The notes under the pieces: generated by a model
What the model saw: the letters and a program-made list of their open reading frames with translations, nothing else
Told to the model about the DNA's origin: nothing
Databases searched by the model: none
Assembly: GCF_012955605.1 (NCBI RefSeq)
Contig: NZ_CP052135.1
Location: forward strand, 1,623,469 to 1,647,468
Source of the DNA: Bacillus fonticola
Lineage (GTDB): Bacteria; Bacillota; Bacilli; Bacillales; JC228
Direction of reading: 5' to 3'
DNA length: 24,000 bases
In this document: one piece after another, positions 836 through 17,702 of the stretch
Position numbering within the stretch: position 1 is the stretch's first letter
Layout of the letters: each line of letters starts with the position of its first letter
Made by a program: the position numbers and the translations under genes

Positions 836-903
836 TAAATCTTGACTCAATCCACCGCACTTTTTCTCTTCCTTACAAGAATCTTTTTCTGTATAATGGA
901 CAT

Positions 904-1035
904 ATAATTAAAGAGAGAAGTGCGCTAACACTTCTCCCTGCAACCTCTACCGTCAGGGTGGTGGTTGTCATAAGTTTATTTCTCTTTATGAGAACCACCC
1001 TGTTGCTTGTGACGGCGTAGGGTGGTTTTCTCGTT
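904..1035 (+). ncRNA. Predicted antisense RNA of small-basic-peptide module, copy A
   Basis: Extended -10 TGTATAAT (TATAAT at 892-897). 5' hairpin GAGAAGTG/CACTTCTC at 913-938. Terminator-like stem AACCACCCT (993-1001) / AGGGTGGTT (1019-1027) followed by TTTCTCGTT. Fully complementary to the 3' end of the minus-strand peptide mRNA. Ends are estimates. Confidence 0.45.
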
Positions 1036-1125
1036 CTCTAGGACGTGTTTGCGTAAAAAATGTGCGGTTATTTCACGCACCATTCCCTTCACAACCTCAC
1101 GTACGAGTTCAAGAAATGTTTCCAT
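976..1125 (-). CDS. 49-aa basic small protein, copy A (unknown family)
   Basis: METFLELVREVVKGMVREITAHFLRKHVLENEKTTLRRHKQQGGSHKEK. GGGGAGGTGA RBS 7 nt upstream of the ATG at 1125; the track's upstream start is unlikely. TATAAT on the minus strand at 1208-1203. Same 49-codon frame is kept in copies at 11226-11375 and 17387-17536. Confidence 0.6.
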   Translation of the reverse strand: METFLELVREVVKGMVREITAHFLRKHVLENEKTTLRRHKQQGGSHKEK

Positions 1126-1436
1126 GATTATCACCTCCCCCCGATCCAAATCGGAAAGAAGACTGACAACCAACCACCCTCACAATATTCAGCTGCACAT
1201 CTATTATACTCTCTTGTATAGAAGATTACTAGAAAAATCAGAAACATACGTTCCCTTTTTGTAAGGCTTCATCAAGTGGTTCTCTATTTATCAATGTCAT
1301 TCGGTAAAGTCACCAGTTTTAAAGGCTATCAACTAATGTGAAACAATGTCGTGAAACAAGAAAATTCGGTTGATGACAGTGGATTGTGCCCATCATAGGC
1401 ACCATGACCAAAAATTTTCCGGTACACTCATCCTCA

Positions 1437-1624
1437 TGTATGAATAAACATAGTGAAGTAATAAAAAAAGACCGCGGTAGCATCAACTACACACGGTCAG
1501 GTGCAACTTACACGCCGCAAGGGTAGCGGCTAAAGAAATAGTCATCTAACTTTTGGCGGTCAGGGTGGATATTTCTTTTCTGTAATGGCGACAACGATGG
1601 CTACGATTGTTCTATGTACACAGC
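1437..1624 (-). pseudogene. Decayed type I toxin/antisense locus, copy 1
   Basis: Nucleotide homolog of 13098-13341. The toxin ORF is frameshifted (..AVYIEQS stop) and cut at 1624/1625 by the Y1 transposase gene. The antisense -10 carries a 5 nt deletion relative to copy 3. Confidence 0.5.
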
Positions 1625-3135: not shown

Positions 3136-3471
3136 CTTTGGTAGTCTATTTAACAAGCCTCTGTAAACGCTAAAATAGATTATTGAGATGAAAAGGTGAA
3201 ATGAATGTTTATAAATGTGCTTGGAGAAAAAGAAATGGGTGAGTGAAATGATATCGGATAGAAGAAAAGCAGATTTTGTGATTCTATATTCATATTCAAC
3301 ATCTAGTTCTGACTTCCTTCAATTATTCCTAGTAAATTAAAAAAGCAGAAAAAAATAAAGAACTTTGTCTCGGTTTACTATATTGGTAAAAATTAGGGTG
3401 GAACAAGACCCGTCCCCGTGTTTCCCGTGTTTCCCCTTCACACTAAGCATACCTTCATGTATAATAAGATA

Positions 3472-3600
3472 TAAATAAAGAGAGAAGTGTATCGACACTT
3501 CCCTCTGCACCTCTACCGTCAGGGTGGTGGTTGTCAATGAATTTTATTTCTTTTGAGAACCACCCTCTTGCTTCCTACGGCGCGGGGTGGTTTTCTCGTT
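3472..3600 (+). ncRNA. Predicted antisense RNA of small-basic-peptide module, copy B
   Basis: TTCACA, 17 nt spacer, TGTATAAT (TATAAT at 3460-3465). Same 5' hairpin and AACCACCC/GGGTGGTT terminator as copies A, C and D. Confidence 0.4.
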
Positions 3601-3660
3601 CTCTAGGACGTTTTTACGAAAAGAATGTGCGGTTACTTCACGCACCATTCCTTTCACAAC
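3544..3660 (-). pseudogene. 5'-truncated copy of the 49-aa basic peptide gene, copy B
   Basis: Encodes VVKGMVREVTAHSFRKNVLENEKTTPRRRKQEGGSQKK(stop). Start codon, RBS and promoter are lost at the duplication junction at 3660. Confidence 0.6.
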
Positions 3661-3743
3661 ATCTAGTTCTGACTTTCTTCAATTATTCCTAGTAAATTAA
3701 AAAAACAGAAAAAATAAAGAACTTTGTCTCTGTTTACTATATT

Positions 3744-10866: not shown

Positions 10867-11100
10867 TGTAATATGAGAAAATGCAGAGTAGAAATAAAAA
10901 GACCGTGGTAGATAATAGCACTACACACGGTCAAAGCAACCACATACCGCGGAATTAGCGGCTAACCTGTGAGTAAGAAATAGTCACCCAACTTGGGTCG
11001 GAGGGGTGGCTATTTCTTTTTGTTTACGGCGACAACGATAGCTACGATTGTTCCTGTATACACAGCCTGAAACGTCTGTGCAGCAATGACAATTGTAACA
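10867..11100 (-). pseudogene. Type I toxin/antisense locus, copy 2: toxin 5'-truncated, antisense RNA apparently intact
   Basis: Reads ..PVTIVIAAQTFQAVYTGTIVAIVVAVNKKK(stop at 11010-11012) with no start codon or RBS; it is cut by peptide module C. The plus-strand TGTAATAT -10 and shared terminator are retained. Confidence 0.5.
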
Positions 11101-11156
11101 GGGCACCGTCACTACTTTTCCTTCACACTAAGCATATCTTTATGTATAATGAGATA

Positions 11157-11285
11157 TAAATAAAGAGAGAAGTGTTTGACACTTCTCCCTGCAACCTCTA
11201 CCGCCAGGGTGGTGGTTGTCAAAAATTATTTACTTTTCTGAGAACCACCCTTTTGCTTGTGACGGCGTAGGGTGGTTTTCTTGTC
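11157..11285 (+). ncRNA. Predicted antisense RNA of small-basic-peptide module, copy C
   Basis: TTCACA, 17 nt spacer, TGTATAAT (TATAAT at 11145-11150). 5' hairpin. AACCACCCT/AGGGTGGTT stem followed by TTTCTTGT. Confidence 0.45.
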
Positions 11286-11375
11286 CTCTAGTACGTTTTT
11301 TCGAAAGAGAAATGCCGCACTTTCACGCATTACCCCTTTCAAAATTTCACGAACGACTTCAAGAAATGTTTCCAT
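11226..11375 (-). CDS. 49-aa basic small protein, copy C
   Basis: METFLEVVREILKGVMRESAAFLFRKNVLEDKKTTLRRHKQKGGSQKSK. GGAGGTGA RBS. Extended -10 TGTATAAT on the minus strand about 75 nt upstream. Confidence 0.6.
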   Translation of the reverse strand: METFLEVVREILKGVMRESAAFLFRKNVLEDKKTTLRRHKQKGGSQKSK

Positions 11376-11700
11376 GATTATCACCTCCCTCCCGATCCAA
11401 ATCGGAAAGAAGACAGACAACCAACCACCCTCACAATATTCAGTTGCACACTTCCATTATACACTCACTTATTGAAGATTACTAGAGAAACAAGAAACAT
11501 ACGTTCCCGTCCATAAGAGACTATTCAATTCACCCTTTTGTAAGGCTTATAAAGCGTTTATCTATTTTAACTATTTACTCGTTAATTAACAACCGTGAAA
11601 CAAGAGAGTTCGGGTGGTGCCTGTGAATTGCGCCCATGATAGTAGACACGAATAATTCAGGAAATCCATGACCATAATGGTGAAAAAAAGGAGCGATTCG

Positions 11701-12003
11701 ATGTCTACTAAAAGAAGTTATAAATCTTATTCGTTTGAACTCAAACTGGATGCAGTTAAAAGAGTACAAGCTGGAGAAAGTGTAAAGGTTGTAGCCAAAC
11801 AATTAGATGTGGTTGATCCTGATTATATTTATGTGTGGATTGATAAATATGAAACCTATGGAGAAGTTGGCTTAAAACGCAAGAAGAGAAACAGTTCCAT
11901 AAGTGACCAAGATATAATTAAAGATTTGGAAATGGAGAATGAAATACTAAAAAAGTATCTTCAAATTCAACGAAAGGAGGGAAAAAGGCAAAGTTCAAGG
12001 TAG
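11701..12003 (+). CDS. IS3-family transposase OrfA (HTH)
   Basis: MSTKRSYKSYSFELKLDAVKRVQAGESV... with a leucine-zipper-like C-terminal end. AAAGGAG RBS before the ATG at 11701. Confidence 0.8.
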   Translation: MSTKRSYKSYSFELKLDAVKRVQAGESVKVVAKQLDVVDPDYIYVWIDKYETYGEVGLKRKKRNSSISDQDIIKDLEMENEILKKYLQIQRKEGKRQSSR

Positions 12004-12011
12004 TTGACGAA

Positions 12012-12916
12012 ATGAAGTCTAAATACCCCGTCTCTAAAATATGTGACAAACTTGAAGTGTCGCGAGGCGGATACTATAAATATGTAAAGAATAAAGGGAA
12101 ACAGAAAAGAGTATCTAATAAAGATAAGGAATTAAAAGAATATATCACAATTGTTTATAACGAACACCAAAAGAACTTTGGTTATCGAAAGGTTCACGGG
12201 GAATTGAGAAACGAACACAACCTTCCAGTAGGCGAAAAAGTCGTTAGAAGGTTAATGCGAGAGTTAGGATTAAAGAGCCAAACACGTAAGAAAAAGAGTA
12301 AATCAGTGAACGGGAATAAAGTGACAGCAGCTGGTTATATCTATCAGAACCTATTAAAAAGAGATTTCTCCATCACTAAAATTAGTGAAAAATGGGCTAC
12401 AGATGTGACTGAATTTCCAATTGGTGATAAAAAGCTTTACCTCTCTGCTTTATTAGATTTACATGATAACTTTGTTTTAGGATATCATATCAACTATCTG
12501 AAGTTCACGACGTCAAACTGGTAGAGGATACGCTTATGTCTTCATTAGAATCTAGAAAACCAGAAGAGGGTATCATTCTTCATTCTGACCGCGGAATGCC
12601 CTACCGTTCCACTCGATGGAATGAATTAATGGGCACGTGTAACATCCTCCCAAGCATGTCTAGAAAAGCGAATGCCCTTGATAATGCATGCATAGAAAGC
12701 TTCTGCTCATTTTTAAAGACGGAGCATAAAGAATTAAAATTAGTCAAGAAAATAGAGTTAGCCAAGCAAATCATCCATGAATATATAGACTATTATAATC
12801 ATAAGCGCATTCAAGGAGTTTTAAATTACAGGACCCTGCTTACTACGGTAAAGCGAGTTAAAAGCGGGCAGATGCCAAGGATTCTCCTTCTCATCTTGAC
12901 AAGCCAACCTCTCTGA
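12012..12916 (+). pseudogene. IS3-family transposase OrfB (DDE), split by a frameshift near 12490-12530
   Basis: The DDE residues lie in WATDVTEF, LHSDRG and DNACIESF, spread over two track ORFs (12012-12524 and 12536-12916) in different frames. Confidence 0.8.
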
Positions 12917-13097
12917 GACACTTTCAGGATGATGAGAAGGAAAGGAACTAAGTCTTAAAGGAACTGGTTCCTTCAGTGAAAACCGAATTTATATTGTCTA
13001 CTTTTAGGATCGCAACGCACAGGCACTCTGCCATCAAATGTTTGGCACCGAAATGAAAAAGTTTGCGGCGATACTCAACGTTATGTATAATATGAAT

Positions 13098-13247
13098 AAA
13101 TGTAGCGTAGAAATAAAAAAGACCGCGGTAGCTACAACTACACACGGTCAGGTAACAACTCATGCCGCAAGGATTAGCGGCTAACCTGTTAAGGGCATAG
13201 AAATAGTCACCCTACTTTGGTCGGTGAGGGTGGCTATTTCTTTTTAT
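13098..13247 (+). ncRNA. Predicted antitoxin antisense RNA of the type I locus, copy 3
   Basis: Extended -10 TGTATAAT (TATAAT at 13086-13091). 5' hairpin GACCGCGGTAG..CTACACACGGTC. Strong terminator GAAATAGTCACCC..GGGTGGCTATTTC followed by TTTTTATTT. Overlaps the toxin stop codon and the whole toxin 3' UTR. Ends are estimates. Confidence 0.5.
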
Positions 13248-13341
13248 TTATGGCGACAACGATGGCTACGATTGTTCCTGTGTACACAGCCTGAAATGTC
13301 TGTGCAGCAATGACAATTGCAACAATTTCTGTTGTCTCCAT
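13234..13341 (-). CDS. 35-aa hydrophobic peptide, type I toxin-like (not in ORF track)
   Basis: METTEIVAIVIAAQTFQAVYTGTIVAIVVAINKKK: one predicted transmembrane helix plus a KKK tail. GGAGGGGGTGA RBS 7 nt upstream. Minus-strand terminator with a U-tract at about 13108-13145, so the mRNA 3' UTR is fully antisense to the plus-strand RNA. Confidence 0.6.
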   Translation of the reverse strand: METTEIVAIVIAAQTFQAVYTGTIVAIVVAINKKK

Positions 13342-13368
13342 GAGCTTCACCCCCTCCAAAGGGAGTGT

Positions 13369-13413
13369 TAGTGGATTGCGCCCATCATAGCAGACACGTA
13401 TACTTCAGGAAAT
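13369..13413 (+). repeat. Solo IS3-type left-end (IRL) remnant
   Basis: gtggattgcgcccatcatagcagacacgtatacttcaggaaat matches the IRL of the IS at 11623-11667. A shorter remnant lies at 1377-1397. Confidence 0.6.
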
Positions 13414-17126: not shown

Positions 17127-17312
17127 ATTTTAAGAACTGGATTAATTTGAACAGAGTTTTGCATATTCCGGAATAACGTGGAAAACTGAGCACATTATTT
17201 CATATTTTCTCCCGCAATAATTTGAAAATGAGGTGCTGAAATAATGTGCTCGTTTACAATCATCCCATCCAATTTTTTTGCCTATACGAATCTTGTTATG
17301 TATAATGGGCAT

Positions 17313-17445
17313 ATAATAAAAGAGAGAAGTGTTCGAGCACACTTTCCCTACAGCCTCTACCGTCAGGGTGGTGGTTGTCAAAATATTTAATGTTTATCTT
17401 GAGAACCACCCTCTTGCTTGTGACGGCGTAGGGTGGTTTTCTTGT
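17313..17445 (+). ncRNA. Predicted antisense RNA of small-basic-peptide module, copy D
   Basis: TGTATAAT (TATAAT at 17301-17306), 5' hairpin, AACCACCCT/AGGGTGGTT stem followed by TTTCTTGT. Confidence 0.45.
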
Positions 17446-17536
17446 CTTCTAGTACGTTTTTCCGAAAGAGAAATGCGGCAATTTCACGCACTGCCCCTTT
17501 CAAAATTTCGCGAACGAATTCAAGAAATGTTTCCAT
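17387..17536 (-). CDS. 49-aa basic small protein, copy D
   Basis: METFLEFVREILKGAVREIAAFLFRKNVLEDKKTTLRRHKQEGGSQDKH. GGAGGTGA RBS. Minus-strand TGTATAAT upstream. Confidence 0.6.
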   Translation of the reverse strand: METFLEFVREILKGAVREIAAFLFRKNVLEDKKTTLRRHKQEGGSQDKH

Positions 17537-17702
17537 GATTATCACCTCCCTTCCGATCCAAATCGGAAAGAAGACTAACAATCAACCACCCTCACAATAT
17601 TCAGCTGTATCCCTCTATTATACACTCTTGTATAGAAGTTTACTAGAGAAAAAGGAAGCATATGTTTCTAATACATAAGAAATCTCTGTCCTGCTTCTGC
17701 AC

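What the first reader, a model, noticed from the sequence alone, without database searches (positions are those of the whole stretch)
13098..13341. Unannotated type I toxin-antitoxin locus (35-aa hydrophobic peptide plus convergent antisense RNA), with two decayed copies including an orphan antitoxin
The minus strand encodes METTEIVAIVIAAQTFQAVYTGTIVAIVVAINKKK behind a strong RBS. A plus-strand RNA starts from TGTATAAT (13084-13091) and ends at a strong terminator (13199-13247). It overlaps the toxin stop codon and the whole 3' UTR, and the toxin mRNA has its own U-tract terminator near 13108-13145. This is the classical 3'-overlap type I geometry. Copy 1 (1437-1624) is frameshifted and cut by the Y1 transposase gene. 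Copy 2 (10867-11100) has lost the toxin start to insertion of peptide module C. Copy 2 still keeps the antisense promoter and terminator, so it could be an orphan antitoxin able to act in trans on copy 3. None of this is in the ORF track; the track ORF 12948-13163 is an artefact of the antisense region.
Basis: partly seen in the sequence, partly recalled or inferred. Interest (0 to 1): 0.6.

Follow-up and report, generated by a model that had tools for sequence, protein, structure and literature searches.

The report
Divergent bsrG/SR4-type toxin-antitoxin locus
This stretch holds a small membrane-peptide "toxin" gene facing an antisense RNA "antidote", an ordinary though unusually divergent relative of the well-studied Bacillus bsrG/SR4 pair, and it is the last of five such loci in this genome whose toxin reading frame is still whole.

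Summary
A 35-codon ORF (minus strand, 13341-13237, stop 13236-13234) follows a strong, hairpin-sequestered ribosome site. It faces a plus-strand RNA gene with a perfect TATAAT (13086-13091), three hairpins and a terminator (13200-13245).

The type I toxin-antitoxin reading is supported, but the system is not a new kind. Related loci in other Bacillales match Rfam BsrG (RF01412, up to 61 bits) and encode Pfam Hol_Tox peptides. The window peptide belongs to a rare 35-residue sub-branch that PF16935 does not detect. This branch is less hydrophobic and has a conserved mid-helix Glu (Gln here).

The frame is under purifying selection: dN/dS is 0.08-0.19 against distant members, and the count against a paralogue is 7 synonymous to 2 non-synonymous changes. 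The antisense RNA structure shows compensatory changes in 11 of 26 pairs.

- A fourth copy lies elsewhere in the genome, with its native 5' end but a 2-nt frameshift.
- A fifth locus of the canonical type is also frameshifted.
- In the "intact" copy, a 42-bp IS3-end remnant replaces the native promoter and the 5' arm of the long-range helix.

Whether the toxin is still expressed is therefore open. The scan has noted bsrG/SR4-type modules many times on other DNA.

The parts
13063..13091 (+). Antisense (antitoxin) RNA promoter: -35-like TTGCGG (13063-13068), 17-nt spacer, perfect -10 TATAAT (13086-13091)
   Evidence: Read. A perfect TATAAT upstream of hairpin 1 is present in all 19 full-length homologous loci examined.
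13098..13247 (+). Predicted antitoxin RNA of about 150 nt (SR4-like). It has three hairpins and is fully complementary to the toxin mRNA 3' UTR, stop codon and last 3-4 codons.
   Evidence: Fold of -53.4 kcal/mol, z = -5.0. The 21-sequence alignment A2 shows 95.4% paired cells and 11 of 26 pairs with compensatory change; 0 of 500 shuffles reach this.
13111..13139 (-). Toxin mRNA intrinsic terminator hairpin, followed by U6 (13110-13105). It is also hairpin 1 of the antisense RNA.
   Evidence: All 4 outer pairs covary (CG/UA, GC/AU) across relatives. In this copy the stem has a U-G wobble on the minus strand, which would be a C-A mismatch on the plus strand.
13154..13171 (+). Hairpin 2 (GCCGC...GCGGC), nearly invariant in all relatives
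   Evidence: 2 sequences carry a compensatory change.
13200..13245 (+). Antisense RNA terminator: 14-bp stem, 13-nt loop, T5. The stem covers the toxin stop codon and the T-run is the complement of the KKK codons.
   Evidence: U-G pairs at two stem positions in 10-12 of 21 sequences would be A-C mismatches on the other strand, so the stem is selected on the plus strand.
13234..13341 (-). 35-codon toxin ORF plus TAG stop: a single predicted helix with a KKK tail
13348..13368 (-). SD GGAGGGGGTG (13357-13348) sequestered in an 8-bp hairpin by ACACTCCC (13368-13361)
   Evidence: The same hairpin is present in all sub-branch loci with a native leader.
13372..13413 (.). Remnant of an IS3-family left end, with the junction somewhere in 13366-13372. 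It replaces the native toxin promoter and the 5' arm (AACTACAT) of the long-range 5'-3' helix. On the minus strand it carries TGCTATGAT (13392-13384), a possible substitute extended -10.
   Evidence: It is 88% identical to 11623-11665, the left inverted repeat of the IS3 element, whose right repeat is at 12985-13026. Homology to copy 4 and to other genomes stops here.
10869..11100 (.). Copy 2: antisense RNA region plus toxin codons 7-35, still in frame. The start and leader are lost to the 49-aa-peptide module, and the -10 box has a 2-nt deletion.
1439..1624 (.). Copy 1: the most decayed. It has a 1-nt deletion in the frame, has lost KKK, lacks the spacer between hairpins 2 and 3, and is cut off by the Y1 transposase gene at 1625.

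Best explanation
This is a divergent member, by descent, of the bsrG/SR4 class of type I toxin-antitoxin modules. The minus strand makes an mRNA of about 280 nt for a 35-residue single-helix membrane peptide with a KKK anchor. An 8-bp hairpin sequesters its ribosome site. The plus strand makes an antisense RNA of about 150 nt from a consensus -10 promoter. The two RNAs are complementary over about 140 nt, covering the mRNA 3' UTR, the stop codon and the last codons.

By analogy with SR4, pairing probably starts at the antisense terminator loop, which faces the stop-codon hairpin of the mRNA. It then spreads 5'-wards and marks the mRNA for RNase III and exonuclease decay, keeping the peptide off.

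The peptide belongs to a rare sub-branch that Pfam Hol_Tox does not detect. This copy is the only one of five bsrG-type loci in the genome with a whole frame. However, an IS3-end remnant has replaced its native promoter and the 5' arm of the long-range helix. Any toxin transcription must therefore come from the remnant's TGCTATGAT box or from read-through of the upstream gene. I judge it more likely than not still expressible, probably at a low level.

What is shown: the sequence features, the homology, purifying selection and RNA covariation. What is inferred: transcription, toxicity, the pairing pathway and the RNases involved.
For: **Ancestry**
- BLAST of the locus finds the 3' UTR/antisense core at 72-79% identity in other families of the order.
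- Those loci encode PF16935 peptides with E of 1e-10 to 2e-11.
- They match RF01412 at 59.5 and 59.3 bits, against a gathering score of 55.
- Loci encoding the window's own peptide type match RF01412 at 35-61 bits.

**The peptide is real**
- Nine homologues of 57-69% identity share the same length.
- dN/dS against them is 0.08-0.19.
- Within the genome, this copy differs from copy 4 by 7 synonymous and 2 non-synonymous codons (P about 0.001), and from copy 2 by 4 and 2 (P about 0.03).

**The RNAs are real**
- Folds give z = -5.0 and -5.7.
- 11 of 26 pairs show compensatory change, and 0 of 500 shuffles reach the observed covariation.
- Strand-specific wobble pairs assign each terminator to its own strand (and direct reading).
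- A perfect TATAAT is conserved in 19 of 19 full loci.

**Mechanism template**
- SR4 and bsrG pair at their 3' ends, starting at the SR4 terminator loop. SD sequestration and RNase III cleavage are documented (PMC3834814, PMC6562991).
Against: - This copy scores only 12.6 bits on RF01412, and its peptide gives no PF16935 hit even at E <= 10.
- Its native promoter and the 5' arm of the long-range helix are gone. The substitute promoter has no recognisable -35 and was not picked up by the promoter scan.
- Its peptide is the least hydrophobic of the sub-branch. The best 19-residue Kyte-Doolittle mean is 1.57, against 2.0-2.5 for the sub-branch and about 2.7 for canonical peptides, so membrane insertion and toxicity may be weak.
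- All four other loci in the genome are broken, which suggests the family is being lost here.
Confidence: 0.55

Rival explanations
1. Same ancestry, but a dead relic. Since the IS3 insertion and deletion removed the promoter and 5' leader, the toxin is no longer transcribed or is no longer toxic. The frame is intact only because too little time has passed. The antisense RNA genes here and at the other loci are leftovers that may or may not still be transcribed.
For: - The native promoter and 5' helix arm are replaced.
- The 3' arm of that helix has also drifted: ATGAGTTG here, against ATGTAGTT in copy 4 and in relatives.
- All four other bsrG-type loci are broken.
- The peptide has the lowest hydrophobicity in its branch, and the otherwise invariant Leu14 and Glu17 are both Gln here.
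Against: - Synonymous changes outnumber non-synonymous ones 7:2 and 4:2 against the paralogues, so selection on the peptide lasted until recently.
- The SD hairpin, start, stop, both terminators and the antisense promoter are all unimpaired.
- A TGn-TATGAT box sits at a usable distance in the remnant (read).
Confidence: 0.35
2. A small membrane protein that has been tamed and is no longer a toxin, for example a modulator of a membrane complex. It would still be regulated post-transcriptionally by its antisense RNA.
For: The sub-branch is markedly less hydrophobic than canonical Hol_Tox peptides. It conserves polar residues (Thr15, Glu17, Tyr/Phe20, Thr21) inside the helix under purifying selection.
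Against: - The full toxin-style RNA control apparatus is retained in every member.
- Loci are patchy across families, multi-copy, tandem in some genomes and sit among mobile elements. This is the pattern of selfish toxin-antitoxin cassettes.
- Repeated inactivation of the ORF while the antisense part survives fits a costly toxin.
Confidence: 0.07
3. A chance ORF and chance hairpins in an intergenic or IS-flanking region.
For: A 35-codon open frame alone is not rare, and the generic promoter and terminator scans were not enriched.
Against: - The frame, length and ends are conserved in nine distant loci with dN/dS well below 1.
- Covariation and fold z-scores support the RNAs.
- Relatives match Rfam BsrG.
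Confidence: 0.02

Closest known systems
[quoted passage not shown]
   Same: - Convergent genes, with the antisense RNA overlapping the toxin mRNA 3' end.
- The stop codon lies in a hairpin that faces the antisense terminator loop.
- The SD is sequestered in a 5' hairpin.
- In copy 4 and in relatives, a long-range 5'-3' helix is present.
- The peptide is short and hydrophobic with a Lys tail.
- Homologous loci reach the Rfam gathering score.
   Different: - This copy scores only 12.6 bits because an IS3 remnant has replaced its 5' leader.
- The antisense RNA is about 150 nt with three hairpins, against 180 nt and four in SR4.
- The peptide belongs to a sub-branch with polar residues in the helix.
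Pfam PF16935 Hol_Tox (TxpA/BsrG/BsrH-like 'putative holin-like toxins')
   Same: - Same length class, an N-terminal M-T-T-x-E-like start and a C-terminal IVxIVVxxNKKK-like end.
- The flanking RNA elements are homologous to those of loci that encode PF16935 peptides.
- The family is present in 145 of 201 sampled genomes of the order.
   Different: - Neither the window peptide nor any of the sub-branch peptides tested (four of the other members) scores on the HMM.
- The own genome has no hit above the cut-off.
- The central segment is replaced by ALTFEAVYTAT-type sequence, and hydrophobicity is much lower.
txpA/RatA of the B. subtilis skin element (type I, 3'-overlap, RNase III-dependent)
   Same: It has the same 3'-overlap geometry. 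Its degradation-only mode is the more likely one for this copy, now that the long-range helix is lost (PMC6562991).
   Different: No Rfam RatA match was found. TxpA is 59 aa with a long C-terminal extension.

Membership tests
bsrG/SR4-type type I TA (Rfam RF01412 toxin mRNA) | Covariance-model match at or above the gathering score (55 bits) | tested here: not met
   This copy scores 12.6 bits, E = 1.5, and copy 4 scores 21.8 bits. Homologous loci score as follows: L003 59.5 and L002 59.3; L043 61.3, and L046, L044 and L042 51.9-53.1. Membership therefore rests on descent, not on this copy's own score.
bsrG/SR4-type type I TA (Rfam RF01412 toxin mRNA) | Convergent antisense RNA gene overlapping the toxin mRNA 3' end, with its own promoter and terminator | tested here: met
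   TATAAT at 13086-13091 and terminator at 13200-13245. Both are conserved in 19 of 19 loci, with covariation. This is sequence evidence only; no transcripts were observed.
bsrG/SR4-type type I TA (Rfam RF01412 toxin mRNA) | SD sequence sequestered in a 5' stem | tested here: met
   An 8-bp hairpin at 13368-13348 in the MFE and centroid folds. It is conserved in relatives.
bsrG/SR4-type type I TA (Rfam RF01412 toxin mRNA) | Long-range helix between the mRNA 5' end and the region before the terminator (P1) | tested here: not met
   The 5' arm (AACTACAT) is present in copy 4 and in all relatives with native leaders. In this copy the IS3 remnant replaces it.
bsrG/SR4-type type I TA (Rfam RF01412 toxin mRNA) | Peptide is toxic; the antisense RNA lowers toxin mRNA or translation; RNase III cleaves the duplex | not testable with these tools
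   This needs expression experiments.
Pfam PF16935 Hol_Tox | HMM score at or above 23.3 bits | tested here: not met
   No hit at E <= 10 for the window peptide or for three sub-branch homologues. The canonical relatives score 39-44 bits.
Type I toxin (general) | Short peptide with one hydrophobic helix long enough to span a membrane, plus a charged end | tested here: inconclusive
   Residues 6-31 are uncharged and followed by KKK. However, the best 19-residue Kyte-Doolittle mean is 1.57, about at the usual threshold, and the Wimley-White octanol sum is only -2.8 kcal/mol, against -11 to -14 for canonical relatives.

The most novel reading that the evidence does not exclude
The genome captures the end-game of a toxin-antitoxin family. 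Four of the five toxin frames are broken. At least the copy 4 antisense gene still has its consensus promoter, and all the paralogous antisense RNAs could pair with the last intact toxin mRNA (predicted gain of -79 to -101 kcal/mol, against -189 for the cognate RNA and -7 for shuffles). That last toxin now runs off an insertion-sequence end instead of its own promoter. If the orphan antisense RNAs really act in trans, this would be a natural case of antitoxin RNAs outliving their toxins and buffering a rewired survivor. The sub-branch peptide, with its mid-membrane Glu/Gln, might also act differently from BsrG.
Probability: 0.15. Interest if true: 0.5.

Novelty: new member of a known kind. Interest (0 to 1): 0.27.

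Why it matters
The main value is for annotation. The finding defines a 35-residue sub-branch of bsrG/Hol-Tox-type toxins that the Pfam model misses. It is therefore likely to go unnamed in Neobacillus, Pseudoneobacillus, Robertmurraya, Pullulanibacillus, Sporolactobacillaceae and this genome.

It also gives a tidy natural series of decay states for one toxin-antitoxin family within a single genome: frameshift, 5' truncation, 3' truncation and promoter replacement by an IS end. This series could be used to ask whether antisense antitoxins persist and cross-regulate after their toxins die. It does not reveal a new mechanism.

Tried and rejected
- **Rfam at gathering thresholds over the window:** nothing found.
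- **Rfam at relaxed thresholds:** a 30-bit ctRNA_pT181 match on the plus strand at 13162-13253 (also on copy 4). I reject it as family membership. It is half the gathering score and rests on a similar terminator loop (ACUUUGGUC) and T-tract.
- **NCBIfam:** no hit for the window peptide, and only weak sub-threshold PepG1 hits for canonical relatives.
- **Generic promoter and terminator scan:** uninformative, because its loop limit misses both terminators.
- **Representative-library search:** gave one true 35-aa homologue. It also gave a 1458-aa protein with 12 Ala/Ile/Val-rich stretches, which I take as a compositional match.
- **The look-up of encoding contigs:** no record.
- **Repeat at 13371-13413 as part of the TA leader or a shared small-gene promoter:** considered and rejected. 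It is the left inverted repeat of the IS3 element.
- **Frameshifts as assembly errors:** considered. Genome-wide ORF statistics look normal, so this is unlikely but not excluded for the 2-nt insertion in copy 4.
- **Structure prediction:** not run, because a helix prediction for a 35-residue Ala/Ile/Val peptide would not discriminate between the hypotheses.

Full report
**What is there**

The minus strand of window 13341-13237 encodes a 35-residue peptide (window:13237-13341:-), ending in TAG at 13236-13234. Six bases upstream of the ATG lies GGAGGGGGTG. In the predicted fold of the minus-strand RNA, this ribosome site pairs over 8 bp with ACACTCCC (13368-13361). The fold energy is -104.9 kcal/mol, z = -5.7 against shuffles.

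Downstream of the stop, the mRNA has a hairpin that contains the stop codon, a GCCGC/GCGGC hairpin, and a terminator hairpin (13139-13111) followed by U6.

On the plus strand, a perfect TATAAT (13086-13091) has a TTGCGG hexamer 17 nt upstream. It precedes an RNA of about 150 nt that folds into the three complementary hairpins. This RNA ends in a 14-bp terminator stem (13200-13240) plus T5, with fold energy -53.4 kcal/mol and z = -5.0. The T-run is the complement of the three Lys codons.

The two RNAs would therefore overlap over about 140 nt: the whole toxin 3' UTR, the stop codon and the last codons.

**Copies in the genome**

BLAST and a profile search of the 3.16-Mb single-contig genome find five related loci.

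| Locus | Position | State |
|---|---|---|
| Copy 3 | this finding | Whole toxin frame |
| Copy 4 | genome 2,688,012-2,688,307 (locus L006) | 85% identical to copy 3. Keeps the native promoter and leader, but a 2-nt insertion (GTGT to GTGTGT) frameshifts it after codon 19. |
| Copy 2 | window about 10869-11100 | Codons 7-35 still in frame. The start and leader are lost where the repeated 49-aa-peptide module begins. |
| Copy 1 | window about 1439-1624 | 1-nt deletion, KKK lost, and ends at the Y1_Tnp transposase gene. |
| Fifth locus | genome about 351,970-352,240 | Encodes a canonical Hol_Tox-type start (MMTYEA...) but is frameshifted. |

The antisense part is recognisable in all five loci. 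Only copies 3 and 4 keep a consensus -10. Copy 2 has a 2-nt deletion in its -10 box.

**What it is related to**

The locus itself matches nothing in Rfam at gathering thresholds, and its peptide matches no Pfam or NCBIfam model.

DNA searches of related genomes, however, recover the 3' UTR/antisense core at 72-79% identity in several other families of the same order. Next to those matches, in the same place and orientation, lie 34-35-residue ORFs.

Most of these ORFs are classic Hol_Tox peptides (PF16935, E of 1e-10 to 2e-11). Their loci match Rfam BsrG (RF01412) at 59.5 and 59.3 bits, above the gathering score of 55.

A minority encode peptides of exactly 35 residues that are 57-69% identical to the window peptide. 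A scan of all GTDB species genomes names the carriers as:
- Pullulanibacillus pueri
- Pseudoneobacillus rhizosphaerae
- Neobacillus sp. D3-1R
- a Sporolactobacillaceae MAG
- Robertmurraya mangrovi

These sub-branch peptides also escape PF16935. Their loci nevertheless match RF01412 at 35-61 bits, with one above the gathering score and three at 52-53. The full-locus alignment shows the same parts in the same order.

The module is therefore a bsrG/SR4-type type I toxin-antitoxin locus by descent, and its peptide belongs to an unmodelled sub-branch. That sub-branch is rare. It occurs in 2 of 400 other sampled genomes of the order, both of one genus. Hol_Tox, by contrast, is in 145 of 201, including all three genomes of the sister genus.

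**Is the peptide real?**

Yes. Against the eight distinct sub-branch ORFs, dN/dS for this copy is 0.08-0.19, with saturated dS. Among the others it is 0.15-0.43.

Within the genome, copy 3 differs from copy 4 by 7 synonymous and 2 non-synonymous codons. It differs from copy 2 by 4 and 2. Only 24% of random changes would be synonymous, which gives P of about 0.001 and 0.03. The paralogues therefore diverged under selection on the peptide, and the breaks are recent.

Similarity to canonical peptides exceeds that of all 2000 composition-matched shuffles.

The peptide is nonetheless odd for the family. The sub-branch replaces the Leu/Phe-rich core with ALTFEAVYTAT-type sequence, which has a conserved Glu17. 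The window copy has Gln at both position 14 and position 17. It is the least hydrophobic member, as the table shows.

| Group | Best 19-residue Kyte-Doolittle mean |
|---|---|
| Window copy | 1.57 |
| Sub-branch | 2.0-2.5 |
| Canonical Hol_Tox | about 2.7 |

**Are the RNAs real?**

A 21-sequence alignment of the antisense region (A2) gives a three-hairpin consensus. In it, 95.4% of cells are paired, 11 of 26 pairs carry compensatory changes, and none of 500 shuffles or of the slid controls comes close.

Both strands are thought to be transcribed, so covariation alone does not assign a strand. Wobble pairs do. The plus-strand terminator stem has U-G at two positions in 10-12 of the 21 sequences, and these would be A-C mismatches on the minus strand. 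Conversely, in this copy the minus-strand terminator has a U-G that would be C-A on the plus strand. Each terminator is thus tuned to its own RNA.

A perfect TATAAT upstream of hairpin 1 is present in all 19 full-length loci.

Homology of copy 3 to copy 4 and to every relative stops just upstream of the SD hairpin, at 13366-13372. What follows (13372-13413) is 88% identical to 11623-11665. That stretch is the left inverted repeat of the single, degenerate IS3-family element at about 11617-13026, whose right repeat is at 12985-13026 (transposase domains).

Copy 3 therefore sits between the right end of that IS and a solo left-end remnant. It has lost two things:
- its native promoter (TGATAGAAT-type in relatives);
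- the AACTACAT segment that forms the long-range 5'-3' helix of bsrG-type mRNAs. The 3' partner has also drifted.

The remnant offers TGCTATGAT (13392-13384, minus strand) as a possible extended -10 about 36 nt before the ATG, but there is no convincing -35. Read-through from the upstream 137/163-codon ORF is the alternative source of transcription. This truncation is also why copy 3 scores only 12.6 bits on RF01412.

**Likely mechanism**

The experimentally dissected bsrG/SR4 pair serves as the template (PMC3834814 and PMC6562991). In that pair:
- The RNAs pair at their 3' ends.
- First contact is between the SR4 terminator loop and the loop of the mRNA hairpin that holds the stop codon.
- The helix then spreads 5'-wards.
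- RNase III cleavage and exonucleases follow.
- The SD-sequestering stem is extended from 4 to 8 bp.

By analogy, the window's antisense RNA should bind the toxin mRNA 3' region and promote its decay. The conformational-switch arm of SR4 action depends on the long-range helix that this copy has lost. A degradation-only (RatA-like) mode, on top of a constitutively closed 8-bp SD hairpin, is therefore more likely here. All of this is inference from homology.

**Cross-talk**

The table gives the predicted hybridisation gain with the copy 3 mRNA 3' region and the longest perfect run.

| Antisense RNA | Predicted gain (kcal/mol) | Longest perfect run (nt) |
|---|---|---|
| Cognate (copy 3) | -189 | 150 |
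| Copy 4 | -101 | 27 |
| Copy 1 | -86 | 19 |
| Copy 2 | -79 | 18 |
| Shuffled | -7 | not computed |

Trans-action is thermodynamically possible, most plausibly for copy 4, which keeps its promoter.

**Verdict**

The locus is a divergent, IS-clipped member of the known bsrG/SR4 family, not a new system.

Ancestry is near certain, at about 0.9. Present-day function of the toxin is uncertain. I put about 0.55 on a still-expressible module and about 0.35 on a recent relic.

Earlier notes of this scan list many bsrG/SR4-type modules on other DNA, and they name the organism as Bacillus fonticola, which I could not verify.

Noticed in passing
window 877-1255, 3458-3663, 11130-11508, 17288-17666; also genome 1,622,138-1,622,293 and 3,087,366-3,087,554: A second repeated small-gene module encodes a 49-residue basic, non-hydrophobic peptide with no Pfam hit. 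It has its own convergent TGTATAAT (11143-11150) and terminator (about 11241-11285). It abuts copies 1 and 2 of the bsrG-type locus and has already been reported by this scan (e1-2480897).
   Followed up: partly
genome C1:351,970-352,240 (locus L011): A fifth bsrG-type locus of the canonical Hol_Tox type has a native promoter and leader, but its ORF is frameshifted after about 20 codons (MMTYEAMNVLLQFGILLVPG*). The antisense region matches the A2 profile at E = 3.6e-10.
   Followed up: partly
L006:2421-2767 (-), i.e. genome about 2,688,932-2,689,278: A group I intron (Rfam RF00028, 83.5 bits) lies directly at or after the 3' end of a flagellin gene (Flagellin_C, L006:2743-3294 minus), about 0.6 kb from copy 4. 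From memory, group I introns in flagellin genes of thermophilic Bacillaceae have been described.
   Followed up: no
window 11617-13026: A single-copy, degenerate IS3-family element has 42-nt inverted repeats that are 74% complementary and an orfB split into two frames (12012-12524 and 12536-12916). Solo left-end remnants lie at about 1379-1400 and 13372-13413.
   Followed up: partly
L042:916-1184 and L046:1974-2237; L045:262-377: Some sub-branch loci in other genomes are tandem: a second RF01412 match lies about 0.5 kb away. The Sporolactobacillaceae contig also carries a BsrF (RF01411) match at 59 bits.
   Followed up: no
whole genome G000: The marker-gene completeness of this closed 3.16-Mb genome is only 83.6%, although ORF length statistics look normal (378 ORFs of at least 300 aa per Mb, 79% ORF coverage). 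The sister genus has genomes of 4.2-4.5 Mb. This may reflect lineage-specific gene loss or a poor marker set, and is unexplained.
   Followed up: partly
window 13162-13253 (+) and L006:1575-1673 (+): There is a sub-threshold match (30-32 bits, against a gathering score of 56) to the pT181 plasmid copy-control antisense RNA. It is driven by a shared terminator-loop motif, ACUUUGGUC. This is probably convergence of kissing-loop antisense RNAs, but the loop motif is conserved in many of the SR4-like RNAs aligned here.
   Followed up: no
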